A stretch of 64,000 nucleotides of DNA from Cyanobacteria bacterium P01_F01_bin.150 (GCA_039189765.1 JBCCYL010000007.1:92553-156552); one strand, 5' to 3'; counted from the stretch's first letter, positions 10,486 through 28,933 are shown. A program made the numbers and translations. The notes: generated by a model from the letters alone, not told the origin.

Positions 10486-11817
10486 GTGGTCACTAGTCAC
10501 CATCAGGAGAAAGTTGTGCAGGAAACCCTTGTGCAGGATCGACTTGTGAGAAAAAAGCTCACGCAGGGAGGAAATGTGCAAGAAGATAAGAGTCAGGATT
10601 TGGCTTTACAACGAGATTCTTTACAACAAAAAGATGCTCTGCAAGAAGAATCTCCAGCAAGCAGTGTACAGAGCATTGAAGCTCTATCTAAGTTTTTAAT
10701 TAATGAATTTCGCCATTCTACCAGTGCCTCAGCCAAACACTGTCGAGAGGTAGCAGGGAGGATTACGGAGGAAGTCTCTCGAATTTGTACTGAAAGTCAA
10801 CGTATTCAAGCCTCAGGAGAGGTGGATACCTGGCTTTTGAACCTTGCAAGGCATCGCCTCAAGCAGTGTTTGAAGTACTATAACCTAGGTTCTCGAAGAG
10901 GGCGGGTTGAGCTGCACAGTACTTTGAGTGCGGTGGTGTATCGATACATTACCCCGCCTCAAGTTCAATCTAGCTATCAGGCACGGCTCAATTTAATTGA
11001 AGACTTCCTACAGAATTTTTATGTAGAAGCCCTGAATGCATTCCGACGGGAAAATAAGATGGAGGCGACCTACTGTCCTCGTTCACTGTTAGAGCTGTCA
11101 GAATATATGGCATTCACTGAACGGTATGGAAAACGTCGTATTCCATTACCCCGTCGTCGCAGCCAACAGTTGATTATCCTACGTGCTCAAACGTTTTCTA
11201 AGCAACAGCCTCCTGAAACAATGGTAGATATGGAACAGGCGGCAGAGGGCGGCAGTAATGAAACGGATCAAGCTTGGAGTACAGCTCCACTGCAGCAGGT
11301 TCGAGAGCAGATGGTATCGTTAGGTCCTGATCCCGCTGAAGATTCTCTACGAGATGTTGTATCTGATCAGCTCCTTGCCTACTTGGAAGAGCGACAACAG
11401 GAAGATTGTGCGGACTATTTTGTCTTGCGATTGCAGGATTTACCGGCCCATGAAATTGAGACGATCCTAGGACTTACCCCTCGCCAGCGAGATTACTTGC
11501 AACAACGCTTTAAATATCACCTGATTCGATTTGCCCTATCCCATCATTGGGAACTGGTGCATCAATGGCTGGAGGCGGATTTGGAGCGGAATTTTGGCCT
11601 TACCCCTTATCAATGGGGTGTTTTCTGGGATGACCTATCCGCCACTCAGCAAGAGATGTTGGAATTGAAGCAAAAAGCATGGTCTGACAAAGCGATCGCC
11701 CAGCAAATCGGCTGTACCACTACCCAAATGAATAAACAATGGTCAAAATTATTGGAAAAAGCCTGGGAAATCCGTAACAATTTAATATCCGGAGCGAAGA
11801 CAGAAGGCAATGAATAG
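10486..11817 (+). CDS. hetZ: HetZ-related protein
   Basis: YYNLGSRRGRVELHSTLSAVVYRYI, EYMAFTERYGKRRI and LGLTPRQRDYLQQRFKYH recall HetZ. C-terminal HTH-like segment. Confidence 0.8.
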   Translation: MVTSHHQEKVVQETLVQDRLVRKKLTQGGNVQEDKSQDLALQRDSLQQKDALQEESPASSVQSIEALSKFLINEFRHSTSASAKHCREVAGRITEEVSRICTESQRIQASGEVDTWLLNLARHRLKQCLKYYNLGSRRGRVELHSTLSAVVYRYITPPQVQSSYQARLNLIEDFLQNFYVEALNAFRRENKMEATYCPRSLLELSEYMAFTERYGKRRIPLPRRRSQQLIILRAQTFSKQQPPETMVDMEQAAEGGSNETDQAWSTAPLQQVREQMVSLGPDPAEDSLRDVVSDQLLAYLEERQQEDCADYFVLRLQDLPAHEIETILGLTPRQRDYLQQRFKYHLIRFALSHHWELVHQWLEADLERNFGLTPYQWGVFWDDLSATQQEMLELKQKAWSDKAIAQQIGCTTTQMNKQWSKLLEKAWEIRNNLISGAKTEGNE

Positions 11818-12898
11818 AGATGCAGATGCTACTTCAAACAGCCCTGAAGAGTTCTCTCAAAGTTCGATTCAGGAACTGTGGAATTGGCTATTTCCAAATC
11901 CAACCCCAGACGATTTTAATGTGCCATCAGGGGAAGGAACCGGGGATTTACTTGGTTCTGATGGGTCTGGGGATTCGGATCGAAACGTGAATTCTAGAAA
12001 TCGGCCCAACGCTGATACTCAGAACGTTATGCTAACCAATCTCAGCCAACCTAATTTATCCTCAACTCAATCAAGTATTGGGGATACTGTATCGTTTGAA
12101 TTCGGAGAGATGTCTGCTGTGCAAGATCGTTTTTATGCCTTATTAAAGCGTCGTTTACGCGACGAAATTGAACGTAATCCTCCCCTTTTCCCCTGGGAAA
12201 ATGATCTTTGTGATTACGAACCTGAAGTACTAGACTGGGAACCAGCCCAATTGGTTCCAGTTTCTATCTGGTTGAAGCAAATTCAAGAGCGTCTACCAGT
12301 CCCCATGTCTGATCAGCTACTCGCTGTTTTGTTTAGTCGTTGTCAAGACGTTGTACATGGTTCCCTGCAACAGGGCGCGAAATTAGTTCAAGCCGTTGAG
12401 GACTTGTTCCCTGGACAAGAGCAAACTTTGAACTATCTTGCTCGTTTGGTGCTGACTCCCAGCTTCCGGGATGGTAGTGATAGGCTTCAGACAGAGGGAT
12501 TTCCAACCCATTACAATGTTGCAACAACTGAGCAACAGATGGCATTGTCTTTAATTGCAGTATCCGAAATTTTGGAGTCCCTCACACTCCATGTTTCTGC
12601 GACTAGTCCCGATGCAACTCGACAATGGACCACATCTACAGGGACGATTCAAGTCTCTGTTCAATATCAACATCAAGAACAGCAAGCGTCACGATTAAGG
12701 GTTGAAAGCTCAATTCCTTGTCCAGGACATCTAAAATTGCAAGGAATGTCTGGAGAAACTATGACCCATCGCGATGACGCAGGGTGTATAAGCGTAGAAC
12801 TCTTTGATGTTGAGCCAAATCAAACCTACCGATTAACGGTGCAATTAGAGGATGGAGCTAAGTCTCCCCTTGTTTTTTCTATTCAAGTCGATGAGTGA
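11810..12898 (+). CDS. patU: PatU-like protein
   Basis: Overlaps the hetZ stop. VQDRFYALLKRRL...PPLFPWE motif and gene order match hetZ-patU. Confidence 0.7.
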   Translation: MNRDADATSNSPEEFSQSSIQELWNWLFPNPTPDDFNVPSGEGTGDLLGSDGSGDSDRNVNSRNRPNADTQNVMLTNLSQPNLSSTQSSIGDTVSFEFGEMSAVQDRFYALLKRRLRDEIERNPPLFPWENDLCDYEPEVLDWEPAQLVPVSIWLKQIQERLPVPMSDQLLAVLFSRCQDVVHGSLQQGAKLVQAVEDLFPGQEQTLNYLARLVLTPSFRDGSDRLQTEGFPTHYNVATTEQQMALSLIAVSEILESLTLHVSATSPDATRQWTTSTGTIQVSVQYQHQEQQASRLRVESSIPCPGHLKLQGMSGETMTHRDDAGCISVELFDVEPNQTYRLTVQLEDGAKSPLVFSIQVDE

Positions 12899-13088
12899 GT
12901 CATCACAATGACATGACTGACATAACTAGGGCTACCAAATATCTCAGAACATTTAGTTAAGGGAACTATTCCAACTTTCCCATATCTTCGCTAGAGCGGG
13001 GTAAATACTTTGATTGAGGTATTGTTAAGGATCTACCGAATGAGAGACCTAGATTAGTAGCCGTGGACACTATGGTTAGGACATAAAT

Positions 13089-13121
13089 GTTATTTTCCCC
13101 TTTTGCTGAGGGGAAAATAAC
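13089..13121. terminator. 13-bp stem-loop downstream of patU (terminator or RNA-stabilising hairpin)
   Basis: GTTATTTTCCCCT-N7-AGGGGAAAATAAC. Confidence 0.5.
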
Positions 13122-13510
13122 GTCTTAATCAATATATCGATGACTATATTAGTGACCAATATCACCGCACCCCTTCGCATCGAATAGATGATCAAAGTTA
13201 ATATTCAACTGGGCGTTGCGGAGGATTGTTTCTGCGCTTCGCCTATTTTTATTATGCAGGATCTGAGTTAAATAGAACGTAGGAAGATATTATCCTAGAT
13301 TGAAACAACATTATTTATGATAGTGATGCTGTGCATCATCCTCTGTCTATGCCTAAAATTGAGACCTAAACGGGTATCTTCAAATGTAACTCATGTGTAA
13401 CAGAATGACTCCAATCTATTGACAATTTTGTATGGATGCTTAAGGTAGGTGCTACATGCTAGAGTCAACGATGATGAATTGCCCTTACTATTTGCTGTAA
13501 CGAGTTCTAG

Positions 13511-16500
13511 ATGGCACATTCCACTCCTGAGGAAAGTTCTAAACCACCGAAAAGCGTTAAAGGCCATGCTTCGCAATCGCCCCTGGCGCTTTGGGTTGAA
13601 CAGCATGAGCGTCAGCTAGGTTTATCGATAAAAGGTCGGTTCCGGGGCAATAGCCTTCACTTATTGTGTGAGTTTCCCTATGTGTCGGCCACGGTACCCT
13701 CTCAAACAGTAGTGTATCGGCATTTTCAACAATCGGTAGACTATGCAGCCCTTAACCGCCTAATTCCTCCTGGCTATCCCCGTATTCGTCACATGTGGTT
13801 GTACGGTCGATTGCGTGGAGCCAAAAAGCCCGCTTGGACTGTCTCTATTCATCTCAATGCAGTCCAGCGCAAAGGTCCTCTGGTCAAGTCCCCATCGGGT
13901 GTGCCATCTTCTATAGAGGCCCCGCCTATGGGAACGTTACCAGAAGCTTCTCCTTGTGAATTTTCCTCTGAGCCTATCCAGGCAAATGGACTCCAAAATT
14001 CACAAAAAGGAGAATTGCCAACGTCATCTAACATTACAGAGGAAGATACTGATGCGGCTACCGTAAAGAAAAGCGATGGTCTGCCCTCCTTGCCCAGGCA
14101 ACAGGTCAATCAGCAGACTCAATCTCAGGTAGAATCTACCAATTTTCAAGGTAATAAAGTTCATTCTTTACCGCAGCATGTCGAAAATACAGGTGACTTA
14201 TATTCCCAAGCAGAACAGGGGCAGCCAAATGCGATTGCCTACTATTTGCGTGATGTCCTGCTTGAGTTGGGTGTTGAAGCCAGTATTCGGGTCAAGCTTC
14301 AGCACCACCGCCCTAACACCACGAAAAATCGCCTCTGGGTAACCTGTTGCGGACCTTACAGTCCAGCAGCAGCCCTAGTCGGTGACCCGATTGCTCGCCA
14401 GTTGCGAGCGTTGTCACTTCACAATGTTGAGGATGCCTTATTGCAATTTCAGGTTAGAGGCGAAGACGTACCTGACTGGGTCTTGCGCATTGACCTTACT
14501 CCTCAAGAAGACATGCTTCGTTCTTGGGCAGAATGGGGAGATGTGGAGGCGATCAGTCGCTTAGCCAACCAAGTTTTAAGACCGTTAAGCGGCCAATTAG
14601 TGGAAGCTACACTCAAGGATATTACGCTTCATCTCAGTTGCACCTCACTGGCCCATAATATCGTTCCAGATACTGAAGAGTCCCTAGACTCTGACAATAC
14701 CGAAGCCGATGCCGCAACAGAGCAAGAAGACTCCCTGACCCCTTCAATATCAGATCCTTGGGCAGATAGCAATGGCAATCAGGGACGCATATCACCCTCC
14801 TTGGATGCACAAAAGACTCGTAACGTTATTGCAGCATTGCTGACAGCCCTAAAGCCGCAGGGAATTCAAAATGTGGTGGTGTATGGTCAACAGCTACAGG
14901 CAACCAGTCCGGATTGGGTGGAATGGATTGATATTAGCCAAGAGATGGATCGCACAGCTTCTCCCATTAAACTAGCGGGTAATGGAGATTTAGATGCGAT
15001 CGCATTCCTCATCCAGCGAGTGCTTAATACCGATCTCAATGAACAGTTGGCTACCGGTGGACGACGGGTGCAGCTATTACTTAAAAAACGGCTGCTGCAC
15101 ATCATGTGTGATGCTCCGCTTTGTCCCGAAGAAGAGGTCGTTGTACCGGAAGTAACGCGGTTATTACGATCGCTCAACGTTCCTGGAGTAGAAGGATTAC
15201 GAATTTATGGCCGACGAGCAGGACAGCGTCGTCCCAGATGGACTGAAGTCATCGATTTTGTTCAACAGCCCCAACTGGTGCCTGAACCTGCCCCTCAATT
15301 TGCCGCAACCGACGCCTACGTTACTGAGTTAGTCACAACCCCTTCCGAACCCATTATTCGTGCTGACCTCACGGCATCTGACTTATGGGAGCGATTAAGA
15401 ACCTGGCAGCGGAGACGAATCCAAACAGCACGACGCTTTGTTTTATCGTCCCAACTAGTCGTTCCAACTGCGGATAGCCCGGAACTGATGCTGCGGTCTG
15501 CTCCTAACACTGCAAGGGTCAAAACCGCCTTGGTCTGGACTGCGGTGGGTGCTTTGGCCCTAGTTCAGACTGACTTGGGCCTGCATCAGTTATCTAAATT
15601 AGAAATTAGCCGAGCAGCGATCAAACCAAGAGAAGAGTCGATATCTCAAGTTGCTGAAGCGCTGGATAGTACCCTGGACAAATCTTCTGGCTCTGCTGAA
15701 GAGGCTGAAAACGGAGGTACGAATGATGACATTGATAGTCATAACTCCGACGTGCCTGATCTCCTTCCTGACGGTTTGACTGACGGTTTGACTGGAGACC
15801 AGAGCCAGGACGAAGTGCTTAATTCTCTAAGTTTTGGGCCTAACGGTGATAATAGTGATCTGCGTCAACCCGCGTATCAAGCCCAAGCAGAGAGCGAAAT
15901 TTTTGACTCCAGCGGTTTTACGACTACTGCAAGCAATGATTTAGCCAATGGTTTGAGTAATGAGTCAGATAATGGCTTCAGCGATGTCAGTTCAGCGGTA
16001 GCTTCCCCGACTGTAAGTGCGGGAACGTCACCGGTTGAAACTGTTGCTGCAGTGCTGGATTCGCCTTACCCGAGCTTCAACAGTGAACAATTAGACTTTA
16101 AACTTGCTCTGTATCATCAGCGAGTGCTAGAAGTTGGGCCTCCAGATATCTTAGTATTGGGCAGCTCCCGTGCACTGCGGGGCATTGATCCCGCAATCCT
16201 TGAAGAAGCGCTGGCCGAATTAGGATATGCCGATGCGGATGTGTTTAACTTTGGCATCAATGGCGCAACAGCCCAGGTCGTGGAACTGATTGTAGAACAG
16301 ATTTTGTTGCCCGAACAGTTGCCTAAGCTGATTGTGTGGGCTGATGGTGCGCGGGCTTTCAATAGTGGCCGAGACGATCGCACGTTTAATGGGATTTTGG
16401 CTTCTGAAGGATACGAGCAGCTTCTCAGTGGTCCCTTGTTACTGAGTACTCCCAGTGGTGCTCCCTCTGATTTGCTGACTACTGACGGCCCACGTACTTC

Positions 16501-17278
16501 TCAAAGTCAGGTCCGTCTGAGGAATATTGCCACTTTGAGTCAGTCTTTGTCCGACAGTTATCAAACCTTAGATGAGGACTTAAGTGATACGTTGGCTCAA
16601 GTATCAACCTCACATTCCCAACGCGATCGAATTAAGGGCATGTTGCAGCATGTTCTAACGACTTGGCTACCTCGGCCCAAGCGCAACTCTGAGGAAATAA
16701 TCGCAATTGAGACCGATGTCAGTGATGGGTTAGCTCTATTAGATAACGATAGTCTGAGTACATCCCCTTCCCAAGTTCAGGGAGCAGATACTTTATCTCT
16801 GGATGCCTCCACTAGTTTTCGGGCACTGGAAAATATTGACGATGATGGCTTCTTACCGCTTCAAATCCGATTTGACCCCACTCAGTATTATCAGTCCTAT
16901 GCCCGAGTGGCAGGTAACTACGATCGCGATTACAGCAATTTTCGCGTTGAAGGGCTTCAAGGCAATGCTTTGACTACCTTACTTACGGCTAGTCGTGTTT
17001 ACGATATTCCTATCGTATTTATCAACATGCCCTTGACGGCTGAATATTTAGATCCATTTCGTATGGGGCATGAGCAAACCTTCCGTCAGTACATGTTGAA
17101 CTTAGCGCTACAAGATAAAAATTTCATCTTCCGAGATTTGAGCGAATTATGGCTCGATAATGCTGAACATCGCAGTTACTTTTCGGACCCAAGCCACCTC
17201 AATCAATACGGGGCTGAGGAAATTTCTCAACACATATCTGAGGATCCGATGATTCCATGGGATGTAACAACTCGTTAG
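13511..17278 (+). CDS. Large membrane protein: four copies of an N-terminal module, a TM helix, an acidic linker and a C-terminal SGNH/DUF1574-like domain
   Basis: Repeated LxxxC...YGx5PxW-type modules. LVLGSSRA, FNFGING and FSDPSHLN SGNH-like motifs. Confidence 0.75.
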   Translation: MAHSTPEESSKPPKSVKGHASQSPLALWVEQHERQLGLSIKGRFRGNSLHLLCEFPYVSATVPSQTVVYRHFQQSVDYAALNRLIPPGYPRIRHMWLYGRLRGAKKPAWTVSIHLNAVQRKGPLVKSPSGVPSSIEAPPMGTLPEASPCEFSSEPIQANGLQNSQKGELPTSSNITEEDTDAATVKKSDGLPSLPRQQVNQQTQSQVESTNFQGNKVHSLPQHVENTGDLYSQAEQGQPNAIAYYLRDVLLELGVEASIRVKLQHHRPNTTKNRLWVTCCGPYSPAAALVGDPIARQLRALSLHNVEDALLQFQVRGEDVPDWVLRIDLTPQEDMLRSWAEWGDVEAISRLANQVLRPLSGQLVEATLKDITLHLSCTSLAHNIVPDTEESLDSDNTEADAATEQEDSLTPSISDPWADSNGNQGRISPSLDAQKTRNVIAALLTALKPQGIQNVVVYGQQLQATSPDWVEWIDISQEMDRTASPIKLAGNGDLDAIAFLIQRVLNTDLNEQLATGGRRVQLLLKKRLLHIMCDAPLCPEEEVVVPEVTRLLRSLNVPGVEGLRIYGRRAGQRRPRWTEVIDFVQQPQLVPEPAPQFAATDAYVTELVTTPSEPIIRADLTASDLWERLRTWQRRRIQTARRFVLSSQLVVPTADSPELMLRSAPNTARVKTALVWTAVGALALVQTDLGLHQLSKLEISRAAIKPREESISQVAEALDSTLDKSSGSAEEAENGGTNDDIDSHNSDVPDLLPDGLTDGLTGDQSQDEVLNSLSFGPNGDNSDLRQPAYQAQAESEIFDSSGFTTTASNDLANGLSNESDNGFSDVSSAVASPTVSAGTSPVETVAAVLDSPYPSFNSEQLDFKLALYHQRVLEVGPPDILVLGSSRALRGIDPAILEEALAELGYADADVFNFGINGATAQVVELIVEQILLPEQLPKLIVWADGARAFNSGRDDRTFNGILASEGYEQLLSGPLLLSTPSGAPSDLLTTDGPRTSQSQVRLRNIATLSQSLSDSYQTLDEDLSDTLAQVSTSHSQRDRIKGMLQHVLTTWLPRPKRNSEEIIAIETDVSDGLALLDNDSLSTSPSQVQGADTLSLDASTSFRALENIDDDGFLPLQIRFDPTQYYQSYARVAGNYDRDYSNFRVEGLQGNALTTLLTASRVYDIPIVFINMPLTAEYLDPFRMGHEQTFRQYMLNLALQDKNFIFRDLSELWLDNAEHRSYFSDPSHLNQYGAEEISQHISEDPMIPWDVTTR

Positions 17279-18665: not shown

Positions 18666-19598
18666 ATGATGGGAGAGTTCGGTAGCTATGACCGACTGCT
18701 GACTCTATTAACTGGTTCTACTATGCACCTGTTACCATTGTTCTTACATTCCCTGATTTTCTCCTTGCATGTTCCCATCATTCACCTCCAGTCGTTTGCT
18801 GAGGTGGCTTTAACGGCTAGTGACTTATCCCTTAGCCAGTGGCTCTATTCCCATCTGGTAGAGTTCTTTCAGGGCATATCTCAGGGCATATCCCAAAGCT
18901 TGTTGACGTTAGTGCAGGGCGATCTCCTCCATTCTTTGTGGTCTGGATTTATCCATCGCCTAGATGAGCTGTGGATTACAGGTCAGGCAAGTCTGCATCA
19001 TTTTGGGAAGGGTATTGCAGACTTCACTGGAACGGTGACTGGCTTTGTAGCCTCCACTGCTTTATGGCAGTTGGGATTGTACTGGCTGCTGCTGGTGCTA
19101 ATGTTTGCTGGAGTTGTTGGCTCTTTTGTGCCAGCGCTGCCTGGGATTACGCTTGTGCTGCTGGCGATTGTTATTTGGGGCATTGCGGTAGGGTTTTCAG
19201 GGATAGTGCTATCACTGGTAGTGGCGATCGCCGCCTTTGTCCTCTGCTTGGCCATTGATAACCTAGCGGGAATCTTGAGTGCTCAAAAGGTCGGTGCCAG
19301 CCGCTGGGGTCAGATTGGCGCGATTATTGGTATGTTTATGGGCTTTTTTGGGTTTCTGCCAGCGTTGCCTGTAGGGGGGCCACTGTTGGGCATTATCTTT
19401 GGAACGGTTCTTGGTGCATTTATTGGTGAATTTCTGCACCGCCATAATCTTGCGTTGGGGGAACGGGTTAAGCAGGCAGCCAAAGTCGGCATTGCCATCG
19501 TCGTTGGGAATTTAGTGGGCAATCTGCTCCAAGGCATTGTCGCTTTAATTACCCTGATTGTTTTCGTGTTTAACACCTGGGGAATGGTTTACGGTTAA
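18666..19598 (+). CDS. DUF456 family membrane protein with N-terminal extension
   Basis: VPALPG, GASRWG and GAFIGE motifs. Exact start uncertain. Confidence 0.8.
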   Translation: MMGEFGSYDRLLTLLTGSTMHLLPLFLHSLIFSLHVPIIHLQSFAEVALTASDLSLSQWLYSHLVEFFQGISQGISQSLLTLVQGDLLHSLWSGFIHRLDELWITGQASLHHFGKGIADFTGTVTGFVASTALWQLGLYWLLLVLMFAGVVGSFVPALPGITLVLLAIVIWGIAVGFSGIVLSLVVAIAAFVLCLAIDNLAGILSAQKVGASRWGQIGAIIGMFMGFFGFLPALPVGGPLLGIIFGTVLGAFIGEFLHRHNLALGERVKQAAKVGIAIVVGNLVGNLLQGIVALITLIVFVFNTWGMVYG

Positions 19599-19673
19599 CT
19601 AGATAAAAAGGCCAGAACCCAGTAGTGCAGGGTACAAAGCAACACTATTGCTAGTGCAAGGGATACGTGTCGA

Positions 19674-19988
19674 ATGGACAATATCTTTGAGAGCTTGCCA
19701 ACTGACTTAAGCCAAGAGGTGTTTGAGCAGTTGGTCAATAGCGAGTCAGTAAAAATCGAGCGTATTGTCTCCAAGGGGCATACGTCTCCCGAACGTGGAT
19801 GGTATGAGCAGCCTCAGCATGAGTGGGTAATGGTTCTCAAGGGTGGTGCGTTGCTGGAATTTGATAATCAGGAACCTGTGCGCCTTAAACCGGGAGACTA
19901 TTTAACGATTCCCGCCTATCAGAAGCACCGAGTCGCTTGGACCGATCGCTTTTGCGAGACGGTTTGGCTAGCTATTCATTACCCCTAG
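19674..19988 (+). CDS. Cupin domain protein
   Basis: IERIVSKGH, HEWVMVLKG and IPAYQKHRV. Confidence 0.9.
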   Translation: MDNIFESLPTDLSQEVFEQLVNSESVKIERIVSKGHTSPERGWYEQPQHEWVMVLKGGALLEFDNQEPVRLKPGDYLTIPAYQKHRVAWTDRFCETVWLAIHYP

Positions 19989-20124
19989 CGAATGTTGCCT
20001 TTCTGGTGTGGCTTTTCGGGTTGGGAGAGGGGCGATCGCCCCTAACGTGTCCCCAAATTTAGGATAGAGGGCATGCCACCATATACATGAACCATCCTCT
20101 AACTCAAATGATTATGAATCTGAA

Positions 20125-20344
20125 GGTCACTCGGAGGCTGTGATCCCTATGCTTTCGTTGACCCTAGCAACACCCTTGCCGGACAAGGGTTTCAGCTATT
20201 TCAAAAGGTGTATTAATGAGAATGATTGTTAAGAGTGAGGGTATGATCTTGACCCTAGCAAAATCGGCCTCTAGATTGATTGGTATATCTGGCTTCTAGA
20301 AGCCGAGGGGTTCCCTCTCGCAGGGAAACTAATTGAATGGAAAC
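20125..20344 (+). CRISPR. CRISPR leader plus a single repeat (20310-20344), no spacer
   Basis: GTTCCCTCTCGCAGGGAAACTAATTGAATGGAAAC (35 nt, internal hairpin, 3' GAAAC). Preceded by a leader-like sequence sharing blocks with the second leader. Leader start is approximate. Confidence 0.7.
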
Positions 20345-20589
20345 CTTAAGCAAGGCAGAAGGATGAAGGCAGAAGGGGGATGTGGGGCGATCGCGCTGAG
20401 TTGAAGGGGGGCGATCGCCTCTCCTCATTGCCAAAATCTAAAATAGAGCAAATGCGATTTTGATGAAGATAAATATTAAAACATAGGTTCTATTTTTTGA
20501 TATTTCGCTAGATTGGGTGATGAGACAGGTTTAGACGCCGAATTTATGACTTTATCTCTTTTATGTTTTTATTTTCTCAATTTCTTCTA

Positions 20590-20776
20590 GGGTTTTGGCG
20601 ATCGCCGAAACCCCCATTCTTTCGTTAAACCATGGAAGTGACTTGCCCCGTAAAGGGTTCAGCCGTTTTCTATAGGCGATTATGGCAAATATTTATCAAT
20701 TATTTGGTCTTTATGGCATACCCCCCGAAAATGGGGGTGTACAATCCATACATAGTGAGGCTTCTAGAAGCTGGCC
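20590..20776 (+). promoter_or_regulatory. Second CRISPR leader
   Basis: Shares CTTTCGTT, CTTGCC..AAGGG(T)TTCAGC and GGCTTCTAGAAGC with the leader at ~20125-20309. Start is approximate. Confidence 0.6.
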
Positions 20777-20883
20777 CTTCCCTCTCGCAGGGAAATCACT
20801 TGAATGGAAACATGCCACAAGCTTAGACCAAAGGTGCTGATGAGACGTCTTCCCTCTCGCAGGGAAATCACTTGAATGGAAAC
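20777..20883 (+). CRISPR. Mini CRISPR array: two identical 35-nt repeats and one 37-nt spacer
   Basis: CTTCCCTCTCGCAGGGAAATCACTTGAATGGAAAC at 20777-20811 and 20849-20883. Spacer ATGCCACAAGCTTAGACCAAAGGTGCTGATGAGACGT. Confidence 0.85.
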
Positions 20884-21003
20884 CTTAATCAAGGCAGAAG
20901 GATGAAGGATGAAAAAAGACGAGATTAAGGCCAGATCGTTCTCAGTAATGCGATCGCTTCTGCCTTCTTTCATCGCGCGATCGCCCCCTTCTGCCTTCTG
21001 CCT

Positions 21004-22029
21004 TCATCCTTTTAAGCACCACTCAGTGAGTTCGAGCCAAGCAGGAGATTTACATAACGCTTCAGTATCTAAAACCGTGCCCCAGCGTTTGGAAAATTGG
21101 ACAAAGCTTTCAATCCAGAGAATCAGCGTATCGATGGGAGGATGATGGCGATACTGCCATGTTTGTTTAAGATAGTGAATCATTTCGTCAGGATGTCCAG
21201 TGTAGTGGAGATACCAAGCAATCCAAATCCAGGTGGCAAAGCGGGTCTTTTGTTCCCCGCGTCGAATTTCAGGGGGCAGGTCAGAACGAGTAAAAAACTG
21301 ATTGATGACAGCGGCAAGCGATCGCGCCTGGGGCAACCCCTTATGCATCGCACTTTCATTATGTTGACGATAGTAAACCGTTATTTCTTCCAGCCAAGCC
21401 GTTTGACATCCCATCGCCGCTAATCGCAATATTAAATCCGTGTCTTCCGCAGGCGGAAACTGGGGGTTAAAGCCATCTGCTTTTAGCAACCAATCTTTCC
21501 GAAACATCATGGCGCTGGGCAAAACAGGCTTCCACTGCAACCACTGGGCCAAATCCAAATAGGGACAATCGAGCCATGGTTTAACGTCCATCAACGCCTG
21601 ACCTGCCGCATCCACCCGTTGCCAACCGCTGTGCACCATGCCCACATCAGGATTAGCGTCAAAGATCGCTCGCTGGCGCTCTAGCTTGGTTGGGACCAGC
21701 CAATCATCCGCATCTAAAAAGGCAATATACTCTCCTCTCGCTAACTGGATGCCATGATTTCGAGCCACCGCTACCCCCTGGTTCGACTGACGGACATAGC
21801 GAATGCGCTGTGAGCGATCTGGCAAATTGCGTTGCGATCGCCCTGTTTCATATTGTTTCTCCATCTGCTCCATGACGCGAACCGTATTATCAGTTGATCC
21901 ATCGTCAATCACAATTAGTTCATAGTCTTCAATGGTTTGGGCAAATACACTATCCATTGCTTGGAAAAGATAGCGATCGCAGTTGTAGGTTGGAATGATA
22001 ACGCTAATAGCGGGGGTAACGAACGACAT
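21004..22029 (-). CDS. Glycosyltransferase family 2
   Basis: SVIIPTYN, DDGSTD, ARNHG and FLDADD. Confidence 0.95.
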   Translation of the reverse strand: MSFVTPAISVIIPTYNCDRYLFQAMDSVFAQTIEDYELIVIDDGSTDNTVRVMEQMEKQYETGRSQRNLPDRSQRIRYVRQSNQGVAVARNHGIQLARGEYIAFLDADDWLVPTKLERQRAIFDANPDVGMVHSGWQRVDAAGQALMDVKPWLDCPYLDLAQWLQWKPVLPSAMMFRKDWLLKADGFNPQFPPAEDTDLILRLAAMGCQTAWLEEITVYYRQHNESAMHKGLPQARSLAAVINQFFTRSDLPPEIRRGEQKTRFATWIWIAWYLHYTGHPDEMIHYLKQTWQYRHHPPIDTLILWIESFVQFSKRWGTVLDTEALCKSPAWLELTEWCLKG

Positions 22030-22289
22030 GGAACGAAAAATGGCACTATCTGGACCGGACGACGCTCATTGATACTGTAGAAAGCTAACATAGCTGACGT
22101 AAACGTGTTCAAACAGCCATTACGATCCCGTTACGATTGGTCCAAGTTTGAATTTAGAGGTTAGAGTACATTTAACTAACCTTTGTGTATGGCTCTTATT
22201 GCCTTATATCTCTCTCTTTTTATATGAACCCCTCTTCCTAGCCAGATTAGGCCATTTCATGCCTTGCAAACGTATGTAATTTTAGACTG

Positions 22290-23591
22290 ATGCCTCAGAA
22301 GACGCCGCCACTCACCCACACCAATGATTCCCTGTCTACCCCTTCGTCTCAGGCTTTAAACGAAGGGGAAACGTCTGTTACGATGTCTAGCGATTTTGGC
22401 CCTTCATCACTCCATATTACAGGCTCTGTCGATCAGGTCATCGCTCATTCTTCATCATCTCGTTTAGATGATACAGATGATGGGATATCGACTTCTTCGT
22501 CTGTCTTGGATTCTCAATCCCTTCTTTCTAAGACTGAGGCATCGGCGGAAGAATTAATGGATTCAGTGTTTGAGGATGTGGATTATATGCTGGACAAGGG
22601 CGTTAGTTTAGTGCCCGCTTCTGCTACTCAATCTTCACCCCAGAAGCAAAATGGGTTAGTTCATCAAACTGAGGCGATCGCGTCTACCCAAGCGAACTCT
22701 AATAGCCTCAAAAACCAAGATGATACGCCTCAACTTGCATCCACCGCAGAATCACTATCGGATCGTTTGGATTCTGCGGTATCCCCCTCTTCAACCGATC
22801 AGGCATGGGGGAGAGCGCTTAAAATTACGATGCCAATCTTTGGGGCCTGTGTCTTTTTGGGGGTCGCTCTTGCCGCTGGATTGGTAATTCACAGCCCGTC
22901 ATCGCCATGGAACCGGGGGGCGATCGCTGATGCTGGTGGCACTAACCCTTCGGATGGCTCAGATGCTGAATTTGCTGGTTATATGCAGCGTGCACTGGAT
23001 ACTATTGCGCGTTCCGAAACCTCAGTCAGTGCTCTGGCCAATGGTTCTGATAATAATGCCAATGGTAGCGGTTCTGACTCTAATGGTCCGGTCGCGACTA
23101 ATCCGTCTTTCCGATCCTCTGGCGTTCCTCAACGGGTCTATATTCCTGTTTACCAGCCTCCTAGTCCATCAGGATCGACCTTGCCTAGTGTGCCGGTGCA
23201 AAGTAGTTTAGACTCTGGTCCAGAGTCTGTATCTAGTACACTTTTGCCAACACCTCCTGAACCTGTTGCATTCTCTCCATCTACAGCGTCATCATCTACT
23301 GTTGCACCTACGGCTTTACCCGCTCCTGTGTCTGCACCTGCGCCTACACCTGCACCCCTCGCTTCCCCCCCCGTGCTTTCCGAACTGAGCCATGACCATG
23401 TGTTGGTGGGTCTATTGCAATTGGGCGATCGCTCCGTCGCGATGTTTGATTTCTCTGAAGGCACCCATCGAGTCAAAGTTGGTGAGCAAATCGGCGACAG
23501 CGGCTGGAGTTTAGTTTCAGTCTCCCAAAACGAAGCGGTCATTCGGCGCAATGGTGATGTGCGCTCGATTTATATCGGCCAAAGTTTCTGA
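22290..23591 (+). CDS. Membrane-anchored protein with Ser/Pro linker and C-terminal GspC/PilP-like beta domain
   Basis: One TM segment. C-terminal LVGLLQLGDRSVAMF...GEQIGDSGWSLVSV...RRNG. Confidence 0.6.
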   Translation: MPQKTPPLTHTNDSLSTPSSQALNEGETSVTMSSDFGPSSLHITGSVDQVIAHSSSSRLDDTDDGISTSSSVLDSQSLLSKTEASAEELMDSVFEDVDYMLDKGVSLVPASATQSSPQKQNGLVHQTEAIASTQANSNSLKNQDDTPQLASTAESLSDRLDSAVSPSSTDQAWGRALKITMPIFGACVFLGVALAAGLVIHSPSSPWNRGAIADAGGTNPSDGSDAEFAGYMQRALDTIARSETSVSALANGSDNNANGSGSDSNGPVATNPSFRSSGVPQRVYIPVYQPPSPSGSTLPSVPVQSSLDSGPESVSSTLLPTPPEPVAFSPSTASSSTVAPTALPAPVSAPAPTPAPLASPPVLSELSHDHVLVGLLQLGDRSVAMFDFSEGTHRVKVGEQIGDSGWSLVSVSQNEAVIRRNGDVRSIYIGQSF

Positions 23592-26884: not shown

Positions 26885-28933
26885 ATGACACTAGCAGTTG
26901 GATCACTCCTGCAAGACGACAGATATCAGATCCAAACGGTCTTGAATTCGACGGATGTTGAAATCGCGTATCAGGCGGTTCACACCTATTTGAATCGACC
27001 CGTTATTCTGAAACAGTTGCTTCATGATGATATAGAGTGGGTGGTTTCTGATCCTCCCACTCCTCAGGATGTCATGATTCAGCTATTGCGACTGTCACAG
27101 TGTCAACATCCTTGTTTGGGAGAGGTTCTGGATTGTTTTGAAGAAGATGGTTGGGTTTATTTAGTTTTACCTACAGCCAGTGAGTTAACGATGGCCCAAT
27201 GGCTGCAAGCTAATGGCCCTGTTAAGCCGTTAGACATGCTGGCGCATCTGCGATCGCTTATCGATATTTTCGATAAATTTCATCAGCATGATCTGGTGTA
27301 CGGAAATCTCAGTCCCCAGACGCTTCACTATCGGACTGCAACCAATGAGATGGTGCTTACTGATTTTAGCTGGCGAATGTTTATTACAGATTTGCTTAGC
27401 GATCGCCACCGACTCAATTATTCAAAAATCCTTGATTTACAGCGATTAGCCTATATTGCCTACTGTTTTTTAACGGGTGATTATGGTTTTGTAGATGATG
27501 TTTGGACAGCAACGTTTCATACTCCATTAGAGGGTGAGTTGGAGGAGCAGCAAGACAACATTCGGCACAATATAGGCACTGTGTCCAAATTTCATAGCGT
27601 TTTGCCCAAATTTCATACCATTAGTGCCATTGCCAACCGAGAGGTGGAAGCAGTAATCTCTACAGCCCTTTATCCTCAAACGGCTCAATTGCTTACCCCC
27701 ACAGATTGGTTTATTGCTTTAGAGCATGCTATCTGTTCAGGACAAATGCGTGAAGCTGTTAGTCCCTCTACATCAGAACCATGTAGTTCAATGGTATTTC
27801 CCTCATTGTTGCCCCCAAACTTTAACGTCCCCCACCCATCATCAGGAGAATCAGGAGAACTAGGAGCAAAGGTCTTGACTCAAGCAATCATAGAAGAAGC
27901 CCCCCTGCAAGCAGATTCCTTAGCGAAGGTAGAGGCTTCGGAGTTACCTTTTTCCGAAGTTCATGATGATGGTGTGGCCTCTCAAGTTTATATGGATGAA
28001 GATATAGAGACCAAAGATGGGACTGGTGCTGATAGTAACGCAGACAATATCTATGACACAGCCCTTGATAGTCAACGAAAACAGGAAACTCGTTGGCTAG
28101 GCGTTAAACGGGGATTGCCTCTACTTTTGGGAGCGACATCTGTTGTAGCAGCCATATCTGGAGGGATGGTAGGCTATGTGTTTCGCACCCAGGATATTGA
28201 GCAACTGGAAAAGTCTCCCCTATTTGGGAATGAAATTTTTGGGCGTGAACAAGAATTTCCTCCCTCAGATCAATGGCCGGGATTGAGTCCTCACGCTGAC
28301 GATAGTCCGACTGTTCTGTTTGAACGTTCGACTACGAGTCCGCAAGCGACACAGATTCCTGATAGTAAAGCGGCTGATACCTTTTTCAGTGATAATGGTG
28401 CAGCTAATGAAAGCCCTGCCGCATCTAGAAGACCTGTAGAGGCTGTTCCTTTGGATGGTAATGGGTTAGCGTCTTCTGATGTCATCAGAGATAGGGCGTT
28501 AGAAAATATTGTGCCTTTTCCCAATGCAGAAGACTTAGAGCAAAATCCTCAGATTGAATCAACTGATGGTTTTCCTCGTCAAGAATCTGAGCTGCCTCGA
28601 AAAAGGCCAAAGCCTTCAGAGCAAACTAACATCCAACCGCTTGTTTCACCTTTAGAAAGCCGTATTAATTCCTCTCCTTTCCAATCTGAATCACCACGGG
28701 TGAATGAGTTGCCACCTCTTTCGGAACAATTAACGCCAAGGAGACCATCTTCTGAGCAAACTCCAAGACAGTCTGGCAACGCGCCATTGTCCAATACGGA
28801 AATTTTAGATCGACTCTCTAATCAGCGACCCAAGCCATTAATTACCCCTGTATCGCCTTCTCGACAAGAGCAGGTCCCCGAACATGATGTGACAGATGTT
28901 TCGGATGCTGCGGGGCTATCTAGTGACGTTTAA
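26885..28933 (+). CDS. Ser/Thr kinase-like protein, probably a pseudokinase, with TM and low-complexity tail
   Basis: Kinase fold (VILKQ, CFEEDG) but no Gly loop, YGNLSP in place of HRDxKP and DFS in place of DFG. Confidence 0.7.
   Translation: MTLAVGSLLQDDRYQIQTVLNSTDVEIAYQAVHTYLNRPVILKQLLHDDIEWVVSDPPTPQDVMIQLLRLSQCQHPCLGEVLDCFEEDGWVYLVLPTASELTMAQWLQANGPVKPLDMLAHLRSLIDIFDKFHQHDLVYGNLSPQTLHYRTATNEMVLTDFSWRMFITDLLSDRHRLNYSKILDLQRLAYIAYCFLTGDYGFVDDVWTATFHTPLEGELEEQQDNIRHNIGTVSKFHSVLPKFHTISAIANREVEAVISTALYPQTAQLLTPTDWFIALEHAICSGQMREAVSPSTSEPCSSMVFPSLLPPNFNVPHPSSGESGELGAKVLTQAIIEEAPLQADSLAKVEASELPFSEVHDDGVASQVYMDEDIETKDGTGADSNADNIYDTALDSQRKQETRWLGVKRGLPLLLGATSVVAAISGGMVGYVFRTQDIEQLEKSPLFGNEIFGREQEFPPSDQWPGLSPHADDSPTVLFERSTTSPQATQIPDSKAADTFFSDNGAANESPAASRRPVEAVPLDGNGLASSDVIRDRALENIVPFPNAEDLEQNPQIESTDGFPRQESELPRKRPKPSEQTNIQPLVSPLESRINSSPFQSESPRVNELPPLSEQLTPRRPSSEQTPRQSGNAPLSNTEILDRLSNQRPKPLITPVSPSRQEQVPEHDVTDVSDAAGLSSDV

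What the first reader, a model, noticed from the sequence alone, without database searches (positions are those of the whole stretch)
20125..20883. Two tandem CRISPR leader-repeat units holding one spacer in total, with no cas genes nearby
Unit 1 is a leader plus one repeat (…AAACTAATTGAATGGAAAC). Unit 2 is a diverged leader plus repeat-spacer-repeat with a variant repeat (…AAATCACTTGAATGGAAAC). Both leaders end in GGCTTCTAGAAGC, and both terminal repeats are followed by almost the same trailer, CTTAA(G/T)CAAGGCAGAAGGATGAAGG. The neighbours are a cupin and a GT2 gene. This could be a seed or collapsed array served in trans. It could also be a regulatory mini-array or solitary-repeat RNA, as in CreA/scaRNA or Racr-type repurposing. 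The repeat resembles cyanobacterial type III repeats as I recall them.
Basis: partly seen in the sequence, partly recalled or inferred. Interest (0 to 1): 0.7.

Follow-up and report, generated by a model that had tools for sequence, protein, structure and literature searches.

The report
Orphan type III-B mini-CRISPR, self-targeting spacer
Two tiny leftover CRISPR arrays of a cyanobacterial type III-B kind sit side by side far from any cas gene, and their only spacer matches one of the organism's own conserved genes, so they look more like relics of a lost immune system than a new kind of regulator.

Summary
Unit 1 is a leader plus one 35-nt repeat (20310-20344). Unit 2 is a diverged leader plus repeat-37-nt spacer-repeat (20777-20883). 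Both are followed by the same trailer.

The repeat belongs to the cyanobacterial subtype III-B (Cmr) family. It forms long arrays in other cyanobacteria. In 4 of 4 loci where such an array lies beside cas genes, these are cas1-cas2-csx18 plus cmr genes, with no Cas6 hit. Its fold, a stem-loop at nt 2-18 with a single-stranded tail, matches the RNase E-processed CRISPR3 repeat of Synechocystis.

This 10.6-Mb metagenome-assembled genome holds only five copies of the repeat, at four loci (1, 2, 1 and 1 repeats). No cas10b or cmr3 was found. The one cmr locus (contig C158) is a remnant.

New here: the single spacer matches the genome's own conserved AroB-like gene at 36 of 37 bases, antisense to its mRNA, and the mismatch is a G-U wobble. 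An independent assembly of the source reads shows no hidden longer array.

Best reading (about 0.5): collapsed orphan arrays, tolerated because the effector is gone. Trans service from an unbinned plasmid is not excluded. CreA, Racr and regulatory mini-array membership tests fail. The conserved trailer is a lineage-wide array-end hairpin, not a guide special to these units.

The parts
20137..20309 (+). Leader A of unit 1. It includes a promoter-like pair, TTGACC (20249-20254) and TAGATT (20272-20277), and the palindrome GGCTTCTAGAAGCC (20291-20304).
   Evidence: 86% identical over 240 nt to the solitary unit on C68. 81% identical over 164 nt to the leader of a real array in same-genus G001. 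Promoter-like site found, but such sites were no more frequent than in shuffles. The -10-like hexamer and the palindrome align in 9 of 10 leaders.
20310..20344 (+). Solitary 35-nt repeat of unit 1, of the type III-B(v) family.
   Evidence: It folds as a stem-loop at nt 2-18 with nt 19-35 unpaired.
20345..20394 (+). Trailer of unit 1. This is the left arm of the outer heptamer (GAAGGCA-type) hairpin and starts with CTTAAGC.
   Evidence: 40-nt arms at 20352-20391 and 20972-21011, 78% complementary. The first 25 nt are 23-25 of 25 identical in all 6 pairwise comparisons of the 4 units.
20497..20776 (+). Leader B of unit 2. It includes a HIP1 hairpin (20590-20613), a -10-like TACAAT (20740-20745) and the palindrome GGCTTCTAGAAGCT (20759-20772).
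   Evidence: 81% identical over 319 nt to the C49 unit. Homologous to the leaders of arrays in G009, G011, G032 and G056. Hairpin found.
20777..20811 (+). Repeat 2a, the variant with ...AAATCACTTG...
20812..20848 (+). The single 37-nt spacer. It is self-targeting.
   Evidence: 36 of 37 identical to G000:C44:22867-22903 (minus strand), with unrelated flanks. The match lies inside a 596-aa AroB-like ORF on the plus strand of C44.
20849..20883 (+). Repeat 2b, identical to repeat 2a.
20884..21020 (+). Trailer of unit 2. The inner hairpin has arms at 20888-20908 and 20957-20974. It is followed by the right arm of the outer hairpin (20972-21011) and then TTTTAAGC.
   Evidence: 79% identical over 131 nt to the C68 trailer. 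The C68 trailer folds at -46.6 kcal/mol, z = -2.4. The unit 2 stretch folds no better than shuffles, z = 0.23.

Best explanation
The region holds two adjacent, minimal, orphan CRISPR loci of the cyanobacterial subtype III-B(v) (Cmr) family.

Each locus keeps three elements: a leader with a conserved -10-like element and a small palindrome, one or two repeats, and the array-end hairpin typical of this lineage.

Shown: these are what is left of arrays that are longer in relatives. Shown for this assembly: the cognate adaptation and Cmr effector genes are missing, and the only cmr locus is a remnant. Shown: the sole spacer copies the organism's own AroB-like gene.

Inferred: the units are probably still transcribed. 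They would be cut by host RNase E and RNase J, as in Synechocystis CRISPR3, to give RNAs with a 13-14-nt handle. With no Cas10-Cmr complex to load, these RNAs would do nothing.

Inferred: the self-targeting spacer is tolerated because the effector is gone, or its autoimmune cost favoured that loss. Recombination between repeats then shrank the arrays to 1-2 repeats.
For: (1) Family. A pattern for the repeat's 3' part matched 21 of 61 genomes including G000, at up to 106 matches per genome; a few single matches look like chance.

(2) Cas type. In G025, G023 and G026 the leader-side flank encodes cas2-cas1, Csx1/Csm6-type CARF-HEPN genes and cmr6-cmr5-cmr4-cmr3. A csx18 hit was seen in G025, and cas10b hits in G023 and G026 but not in G025. 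There was no Cas6 hit. RefSeq annotates the same set on Anabaena cylindrica pANACY.03, including csx18 and cas10/cmr2.

(3) Fold. The stem-loop at nt 2-18 with an unpaired tail matches passages of PMC12464536 on the Cas6-less, RNase E-cut CRISPR3 repeat. The stem co-varies between genomes: TTCCCT/AGGGAA, AACTTC/GAAGTT, TTCCTA/TAGGAA, TCCCCA/TGGGGA.

(4) Copies in G000. Only 5 copies at up to 8 mismatches, at 4 loci. The five other repeat families of G000 occur only in arrays of 7-48 repeats, with no solitary copies.

(5) No cognate genes. No Cas10b. tblastn with the Cmr2, Cmr3, Csx18 and CARF-HEPN proteins of three relatives, and with Cmr2-Cmr5 and Csx18 of A. cylindrica, found nothing. Cmr3 has only one weak hit, on C285. 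C158 keeps cmr6, cmr5 and a cmr4 that aligns only from residue 90 on, with two ORFs on the other strand between them. The best Cas1 identity to the family's Cas1 is 38%.

(6) Self-match of the spacer at 36 of 37. The target is single-copy in G000. Orthologues at 69-74% identity occur in 13 of 16 genomes of the same family.

(7) Same organism. GC content is 0.460 and 0.461, and HIP1 density is 1.00 and 1.08 per kb, for the array contig and the target contig. Contig depths in the source run are similar, 36-45 against 34.

(8) Not an artefact. A Logan contig runs unbranched through the unit 1 repeat. The unit 2 repeat unitig has depth 100 against flanks of 36-47. The spacer path has depth 47.

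(9) Precedent. G032 (99% complete) and G009 (90% complete) carry arrays with the same leader type but no Cas10b hit.
Against: (1) The genome is a metagenome bin. Type III-B loci of this family are plasmid-borne in A. cylindrica, and plasmids are often left out of bins. The effector may therefore exist but be unassembled.

(2) The units do not look neutrally decayed. The 13-nt handle plus the first 25 nt of trailer are 35-38 of 38 identical in all 6 pairs of units, while the leaders are 58-86 of 100 identical. The -10-like element and the palindrome are kept, with symmetric changes in G011 and G009.

(3) cmr6 and cmr5 on C158 are still full-length, and the C158 array still has 12 near-perfect repeats. 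Effector loss alone therefore does not explain why only this repeat variant collapsed.

(4) The abstract of PMC7708048 says that deterioration of CRISPR-Cas systems in genomes with self-targeting spacers is rare.

(5) No transcript data exist.
Confidence: 0.5

Rival explanations
1. These are live mini-arrays or 'seed' arrays served in trans by a type III-B system that is not in the bin, for example on a plasmid. The units would be transcribed, cut by RNase E and loaded into Cmr. The one spacer would then knock down or police the AroB-like mRNA, or be tolerated because that gene is silent.
For: The promoter-like elements, the palindrome and the repeat-plus-handle are well conserved. Same-genus G001 has Cas10b and a type-A leader array with at least 5 repeats. 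G011 has a type-B leader with just 2 repeats and 1 spacer, lying 1.3 kb from an intact cas10b, so very small arrays can be the working ones. The crRNA would be antisense to the target mRNA, and only 4 of 8 handle positions could pair with the target flank, so an active complex would not read the target as 'self'. The family's cas loci can be plasmid-borne.
Against: No cognate cas gene was found in a bin that is 99% complete by marker genes. The Logan contig through the unit 1 repeat is unbranched, and the unit 2 repeat depth fits about 2 copies. The sample therefore shows no main array with these exact repeats. Full complementarity to a conserved host gene would be autoimmune for a type III system with CARF-HEPN RNases. 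The units were not found in the three other same-genus genomes. The G011 mini-array spacer has no self-match at up to 3 mismatches.
Confidence: 0.25
2. These are Cas-independent small-RNA genes. Because this repeat family needs only host RNases for maturation, unit 2 would release a 37-nt antisense RNA that base-pairs with the AroB-like mRNA like an ordinary trans-acting sRNA.
For: Maturation of this family without Cas6 is published (passages of PMC12464536). Complementarity is 36 of 37 plus one G-U wobble. Leader promoter elements are conserved.
Against: No expression data exist. There is no conservation of this spacer in relatives. The solitary units carry no spacer at all, so this reading cannot explain them. 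The folds are no more stable than shuffles, with z from +0.2 to +0.9 for the window units.
Confidence: 0.08
3. These are hard-wired crRNA-like genes. In the solitary units the conserved trailer would be the guide (a 13-nt handle plus 25 or more nt), aimed at transcripts that carry the complementary heptamer repeat.
For: The 38-nt block of handle plus trailer is the best-conserved part of all four units, at 35-38 of 38 identical.
Against: The same trailer follows terminal repeats of other repeat families. This is seen in same-genus G001 at C628 and C916, and in two metagenome contigs, L052 and L053; L053 is an ordinary array with 5 repeats in the stretch read. From its first base the trailer is the left arm of a long hairpin, so the 'guide' would be sequestered. 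Its heptamer part is a dispersed repeat, with 208 sites at up to 2 mismatches. No specific target was found: the 25-mer at up to 4 mismatches gave only 7 hits, and 4 of them are the units themselves.
Confidence: 0.05
4. The locus is an assembly artefact, a longer array collapsed by the assembler, or it is a Racr-like decoy carried by a mobile element.
For: Short-read assemblers often collapse arrays. Solitary repeats are known as RNA anti-CRISPRs in viruses (start of the abstract of PMC10651486, seen in the listing).
Against: An independent assembly of the same run gives the same joins, with a repeat depth of about 2 copies and no alternative spacer path. This comes from the same reads, so it is not an independent sample. 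All four units lie between housekeeping genes: cupin and GT2; an acetolactate-synthase-like gene and a histidine phosphatase; miaE, hisD and mog.
Confidence: 0.04

Closest known systems
Synechocystis sp. PCC 6803 CRISPR3, subtype III-Bv, matured by RNase E and RNase J (PMC12464536, passages read; Behler et al. 2018 seen only as cited there)
   Same: The repeat has a 5' stem-loop at nt 2-18 and a single-stranded AU-rich tail. Relatives' arrays of this family sit beside cmr genes with no Cas6 hit. A 13/14-nt handle is the expected product.
   Different: Here there are only 1-2 repeats per locus, on the chromosome, with no cmr, cas1 or cas2 genes beside them and no intact cognate set in the assembly. 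I did not compare the Synechocystis repeat sequence itself: a 35-nt blastn against plasmids did not return pSYSA.
Orphan CRISPR arrays and self-targeting spacers (Nobrega et al. 2020, PMC7708048, abstract read; Stern et al. 2010, recalled and not seen)
   Same: An array away from cas genes, and a spacer matching the same genome.
   Different: The target is a conserved single-copy metabolic-type gene, not a prophage. According to that abstract, more than half of self-targeting spacers map to prophage regions. The system type is III-B, which targets RNA, and the spacer is the only one present.
Regulatory mini-arrays and crRNA-like RNAs (Shmakov et al. 2023, bioRxiv 10.1101/2023.03.03.530964, abstract read) and CreA (PMC8501985, start of the abstract seen in a search listing)
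   Same: The repeat-spacer-repeat format and standalone repeats.
   Different: Those lie inside CRISPR-cas loci, are conserved between related loci, and have spacers partially complementary to promoters of cas or cargo genes. According to that abstract they are mostly of type I, with some of subtype V-A. None of these features holds here.
Viral solitary repeat units and RNA anti-CRISPRs, Racr (PMC10651486, start of the abstract seen in a search listing)
   Same: Solitary copies of a CRISPR repeat with their own promoter-like upstream sequence.
   Different: Racrs are encoded in viral genomes. These units lie between chromosomal housekeeping genes and carry full CRISPR leaders that are homologous to the leaders of real arrays.

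Membership tests
CRISPR array (generic) | Two or more direct repeats of 23-47 nt separated by a unique spacer of similar length | tested here: met
   Unit 2 has two identical 35-nt repeats and a 37-nt spacer. Unit 1 has one repeat only, so taken alone it is a solitary repeat and not an array.
CRISPR array (generic) | The repeat belongs to a family that forms long arrays elsewhere, and the leader is homologous to leaders of such arrays | tested here: met
   Up to 106 matches per genome in relatives. The leaders align with those of arrays in G001, G009, G011, G032 and G056, and with the leader of the C158 array.
CRISPR-Cas locus | cas genes adjacent to the array, or a cognate set elsewhere in the genome | tested here: not met
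   No cas domain in 17 ORFs within about 15 kb on either side. No Cas10b, and no close Cmr3, Cmr4, Csx18 or cognate Cas1. Caveat: this is a metagenome bin, so plasmids may be missing.
Subtype III-B(v) repeat family (Synechocystis CRISPR3 type) | Arrays associated with cmr2-cmr6 genes and no cas6 | tested here: met
   4 of 4 cas-adjacent loci of the family: G025, G023, G026 and A. cylindrica pANACY.03. No cas10b hit was seen in the G025 flank. Some ORFs there had no family hit, so a very divergent Cas6 is not excluded.
Subtype III-B(v) repeat family (Synechocystis CRISPR3 type) | Repeat RNA with a stem-loop at nt 2-18 and a single-stranded 3' tail | tested here: met
   The minimum-free-energy structure and the centroid both show it for both repeat variants. 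The description comes from PMC12464536. The stem co-varies across genomes.
Subtype III-B(v) repeat family (Synechocystis CRISPR3 type) | RNase E cleavage giving a 13/14-nt 5' handle and crRNAs of 42 and 48 nt | not testable with these tools
   No RNA run is listed for this sequence.
Regulatory mini-array / crRNA-like RNA (Shmakov 2023; CreA) | Located within a CRISPR-cas locus and conserved in closely related loci | tested here: not met
   No cas genes nearby. The repeat was not found in 3 of 3 other same-genus genomes.
Regulatory mini-array / crRNA-like RNA (Shmakov 2023; CreA) | Spacer only partially complementary to a promoter of a cas or cargo gene | tested here: not met
   The spacer is complementary at 36 of 37 positions to codons 480-492 of an AroB-like coding region on another contig.
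RNA anti-CRISPR (Racr) / viral solitary repeat unit | Encoded by a virus or other mobile element | tested here: not met
   Housekeeping genes flank all four units. A group II intron reverse transcriptase lies about 2.7 kb from the C68 unit but is not part of it.
Self-targeting spacer | Near-identical protospacer on the same genome, outside any array | tested here: met
   36 of 37 identical, with unrelated flanks. The contigs share composition and depth. The target is single-copy.

The most novel reading that the evidence does not exclude
The four units are not dead. On this reading they are a lineage-specific class of promoter-driven, Cas6-independent (RNase E-matured) CRISPR-derived small-RNA genes, kept on the chromosome. 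The one-spacer unit would make an antisense guide against a conserved AroB-like host gene. That guide would be used either by a type III-B complex supplied from a plasmid, coupling host metabolism or growth arrest to the presence of that plasmid, or without any Cas protein. The array-end hairpin shared across several CRISPR types would be a dedicated insulator that stops the terminal repeat from producing a rogue guide.
Probability: 0.12. Interest if true: 0.7.

Novelty: new member of a known kind. Interest (0 to 1): 0.38.

Why it matters
If the relic reading holds, this is a clear natural example of three events occurring together: loss of a type III-B effector, collapse of its arrays to single repeats, and one surviving self-targeting spacer against a core gene. 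That is useful for the debate on autoimmunity versus regulation, but it is not surprising.

Because this repeat family is matured by housekeeping RNases, such relics may keep producing crRNA-like RNAs after the cas genes are gone. That makes the locus a testable case for how CRISPR remnants could be turned into regulators.

The shared trailer hairpin after arrays of different repeat families may be a general array-end element of this cyanobacterial lineage. I searched no literature for a description of it.

Tried and rejected
- **Rfam.** No family matched 19000-22500 at E up to 1.
- **RNA evidence.** No RNA holder is listed. One DNA run holds the stretch.
- **Spacer against phages and plasmids.** No match in either collection in distant mode at E up to 1.
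- **Assembly collapse.** Rejected on Logan contigs of the one holder run. These come from the same reads, not from an independent sample.
- **Trailer as a specific guide.** Rejected as the main reading.
- **Trailer start as the general edge of the heptamer repeat.** Not so. Among 204 heptamer runs in G000 the upstream flank varies, and the 8-mer CCTTAAGC occurs only twice, both times at units.
- **Repeat-plus-trailer junction in one genome per species (genome contigs).** One hit, which is a chance match inside coding-like sequence with no repeat and no heptamers.
- **The same junction in metagenome contigs.** No hit. The looser GGAAAC-plus-trailer pattern gave 2 hits, both after another repeat family.
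- **Self-match of the G011 mini-array spacer.** None at up to 3 mismatches.
- **Synteny in relatives.** The flanking genes match at only about 66-71% DNA identity and lie on different contigs, so no orthologous intergenic region could be compared.
- **Earlier notes of this scan.** Nothing on this locus or this repeat. One search failed for having too many words and was re-sent shorter.
- **Promoter and terminator scan.** One site of each kind, no more than shuffles give.
- **An error of my own, caught.** My first codon reading of the spacer mismatch was off by one base. One search gives the correct reading: Ala485 (GCC) in the gene against ACC in the spacer version.

Full report
**1. What is there**

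The window lies at G000:C7:92553-156552. G000 is a 10.6-Mb, 350-contig cyanobacterial metagenome bin, 99% complete and 4.7% contaminated by marker genes.

Between a cupin gene (19674-19988) and a convergent GT2-like gene (21004-22029, minus strand) lie two leader-repeat units:
- **Unit 1** has a leader of about 170 nt (20137-20309), one 35-nt repeat (20310-20344) and a trailer.
- **Unit 2** has a leader of about 280 nt (20497-20776), a repeat (20777-20811), a 37-nt spacer (20812-20848), a repeat (20849-20883) and a trailer.

The repeat pattern occurs 3 times in the window and in none of 100 shuffles.

**2. The repeat is a real CRISPR repeat of the type III-B family**

*Distribution.* A pattern for its 3' part, with up to 1 mismatch, matched 21 of 61 genomes including G000. 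Arrays reach up to 106 matches per genome. A few single matches look like chance.

*Associated cas genes.* In the three unnamed relatives where such an array lies next to cas genes (G025, G023, G026), the leader-side flank encodes:
- cas2-cas1 and Csx1/Csm6-type CARF-HEPN proteins;
- cmr6, cmr5, cmr4 and cmr3;
- a csx18 hit in G025, and cas10b hits in G023 and G026 but not in G025.

No Cas6 hit was seen. RefSeq annotates the same layout, including csx18 and cas10/cmr2, on Anabaena cylindrica PCC 7122 plasmid pANACY.03. Arrays of the family in G032, G042 and G009 have no cas gene within the 5-20 kb examined on the sides looked at.

*Fold.* Both repeat variants fold into a stem-loop at nt 2-18, with nt 19-35 unpaired. 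Passages of PMC12464536 describe exactly this for the Synechocystis CRISPR3 (III-Bv) repeat. That system has no Cas6 and is cut by RNase E downstream of the stem, giving 13/14-nt handles and crRNAs of 42 and 48 nt. The stem co-varies between genomes.

**3. Where else the repeat occurs in this genome**

At up to 8 mismatches the repeat occurs only 5 times in G000. Three copies are here. One solitary copy is at C49:10192-10226 and one at C68:17699-17733, each with a leader and a trailer.

The leaders fall into two types:
- **Type A** comprises unit 1 and C68, which are 86% identical over 240 nt.
- **Type B** comprises unit 2 and C49, which are 81% identical over 319 nt.

Both types are old. G001, of the same genus, has a type-A leader in front of an array of at least 5 repeats. 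G009, G011, G032 and G056 have type-B leaders in front of arrays of 2-10 repeats.

A -10-like hexamer and the palindrome GGCTTCTAGAAGCC align in 9 of 10 leaders. The palindrome shows symmetric changes in G011 and G009.

The five other repeat families of G000 occur only in arrays of 7-48 repeats and have no solitary copies. All four units lie between housekeeping genes.

**4. Cognate cas genes**

- G000 has three cas1 genes, on C127, C53 and C285. Each sits beside an array of another repeat family, and none is more than 38% identical to this family's Cas1.
- No Cas10b was found. The only Cas10 hit is on C285, beside a different repeat.
- tblastn with the Cmr2, Cmr3, Csx18 and CARF-HEPN proteins of three relatives, and with Cmr2-Cmr5 and Csx18 of A. 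cylindrica, found nothing.
- Contig C158 carries a 12-repeat array with a related repeat that ends in TTGGAAAC. Its leader shares a conserved block with the leaders here.
- Beside that array lie full-length cmr6 and cmr5, and a cmr4 that aligns only from residue 90 on. Two ORFs on the other strand sit between cmr6 and cmr5. There is no cmr3 or cas10.

As assembled, the genome has no intact effector for these units. The caveat is that bins often miss plasmids, and this family's cas loci can be plasmid-borne.

**5. The spacer targets the organism's own gene**

The 37-nt spacer matches G000:C44:22867-22903 at 36 of 37 positions, and the flanks are unrelated.

*The target gene.*
- The site is at codons 480-492 of a 596-aa ORF on the plus strand of C44. 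The ORF has 3-dehydroquinate-synthase-like domains, scores below the NCBIfam cut-offs for AroB, and lies next to gltX.
- A crRNA read from the leader would therefore be antisense to this mRNA.
- The gene is single-copy in G000. Orthologues at 69-74% identity occur in 13 of 16 genomes of the same family, so it is a vertically inherited host gene and not a mobile element.

*The match itself.*
- The one mismatch would be a U-G wobble in the RNA duplex. In the gene it is the first base of Ala485.
- Only 4 of the last 8 handle positions could pair with the target's flank (read). An active type III complex would therefore not treat the target as self.
- The spacer has no match in the phage or plasmid collections.

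*Same organism.* The array contig and the target contig share GC content (0.460 and 0.461), HIP1 density and depth in the source run (36-45 against 34).

**6. Not an assembly artefact**

Logan contigs of the one run that holds the locus, a marine metagenome, reproduce every join. One contig runs unbranched through the unit 1 repeat. The unit 2 repeat unitig has depth 100 against flanks of 36-47, which fits about two copies. The spacer path has depth 47, and no other spacer path appears. These are the same reads as the bin, so this is a check on the assembler, not an independent sample.

**7. The trailer**

*Conservation among the units.* The 13-nt handle plus the first 25 nt of trailer are 35-38 of 38 identical in all six pairs of units. 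The leaders are 58-86 of 100 identical, and the distal trailer is 36-46 of 65.

*The trailer is not special to these units.*
- Its heptamer part (GAAGGCA type) is a dispersed repeat of this genome, with 208 sites at up to 2 mismatches.
- From its first base the trailer is the left arm of a long hairpin.
- In same-genus G001 the same start, CTTAACCAAGGCAGAAGG, follows terminal or solitary repeats of two other repeat families that end in GGGGACGGAAAC and GGGGACTGAAAC. There it is sometimes followed by a fragment of the repeat end and then a second hairpin.
- Two metagenome contigs show the same thing. One of them follows an ordinary array with 5 repeats in the stretch read.

The trailer is therefore best read as an array-end hairpin of this lineage, a terminator or insulator, or possibly a small element with a preference for this site. 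It is not a hard-wired guide.

In the window, unit 2 sits inside the loop of unit 1's trailer hairpin.

**8. Reading**

The simplest account is that these are collapsed orphan arrays of a type III-B system that this organism no longer has, or no longer has intact. The self-targeting spacer is either harmless for that reason or was part of the reason for the loss.

Three points count against a purely neutral relic:
- the good conservation of promoter-like elements, palindrome, repeat and handle;
- the intact cmr6 and cmr5 genes and the 12-repeat array on C158;
- the statement in the abstract of PMC7708048 that systems with self-targeting spacers rarely deteriorate.

G011 shows that an array of 2 repeats and 1 spacer can sit 1.3 kb from an intact cas10b. 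Small size alone therefore does not mean an array is dead.

I put trans service by an unbinned system at about 0.25. Cas-independent or hard-wired-guide readings together come to about 0.13.

Membership in the CreA, regulatory mini-array (abstract of 10.1101/2023.03.03.530964) and Racr classes fails on location, on target type and on conservation.

**9. What I did not see**

- There are no transcript data.
- I read no supplements.
- Behler et al. 2018 was seen only as cited in PMC12464536.
- Stern et al. 2010, and the idea that one repeat plus a leader is enough for spacer acquisition, are recalled and not checked.

Noticed in passing
G001:C628:3300-4000 (L044), G001:C916 (L050), metagenome loci L052 and L053: Arrays or solitary repeats of other CRISPR repeat families, ending in GGGGACGGAAAC or GGGGACTGAAAC, are followed by the same trailer start CTTAA(C/T)CAAGGCAGAAGG. 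In three places a 12-13-nt fragment of the repeat end lies after a hairpin's right arm and is followed by this trailer. This looks like a target-site duplication or a tandem copy of the repeat end plus hairpin.
   Followed up: partly
whole genome G000, for example C1:44818-118133: A heptamer repeat, GAAGGCA on one strand and TGCCTTC on the other, is dispersed over the genome, with about 204-208 runs, usually as hairpin arms between genes. 26 of the 27 sites listed on contig C1 lie on the same strand, which suggests a bias with replication or transcription direction.
   Followed up: partly
G000:C158:6900-12900 (L033): A remnant type III-B locus. It has a 12-repeat array, cmr6, then two ORFs on the other strand (one resembling a 4-TM effector model of PADLOC), then cmr5 and a cmr4 lacking about its first 90 residues. 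No cmr3 or cas10 is present. A PD-(D/E)xK cas-associated gene lies at 13586-14251.
   Followed up: partly
G011:C47:9136-13660 (L043, L045): In another genus of the same family, a type-B leader with only two repeats and one spacer lies 1.3 kb from, and divergent to, an intact 1054-aa cas10b frame. Its trailer is also purine-rich.
   Followed up: partly
alignment A1, columns about 64-78 (window 20291-20304 and 20759-20772): The 14-nt palindrome just upstream of the first repeat is kept in 9 of 10 leaders, with symmetric changes: GGGTTCTAGAACCC in G011 and GCTCTTTAGAGC in G009. This could be an RNA hairpin at the 5' end of the pre-crRNA or a binding site for a dimeric protein.
   Followed up: no
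window 20137-20201, C158:6659-6723, and leaders in G001 and G011: A distal leader block, ATTCTTTCGTTGACCCTAGCAAC ... CAAGGGTTTCAGC, lies about 190 nt upstream of the first repeat. It is conserved across leader types and genera and is preceded by a HIP1 hairpin (20590-20613 in leader B).
   Followed up: no
G000:C53:47838-48809: The Cas1 match beside the 40-repeat array lies in a 579-aa open frame, far longer than a plain Cas1. It may be a fusion protein.
   Followed up: no
G000:C68:20557-21771 (L035:12858-14072): A group II intron reverse transcriptase/maturase ORF lies about 2.7 kb from the C68 solitary unit.
   Followed up: no
window 10486-17278, 22290-23591 and 26885-28933: Several large ORFs near the locus (443, 362, 1255, 433 and 682 aa) have no Pfam hit at E up to 1e-8.
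   Followed up: no
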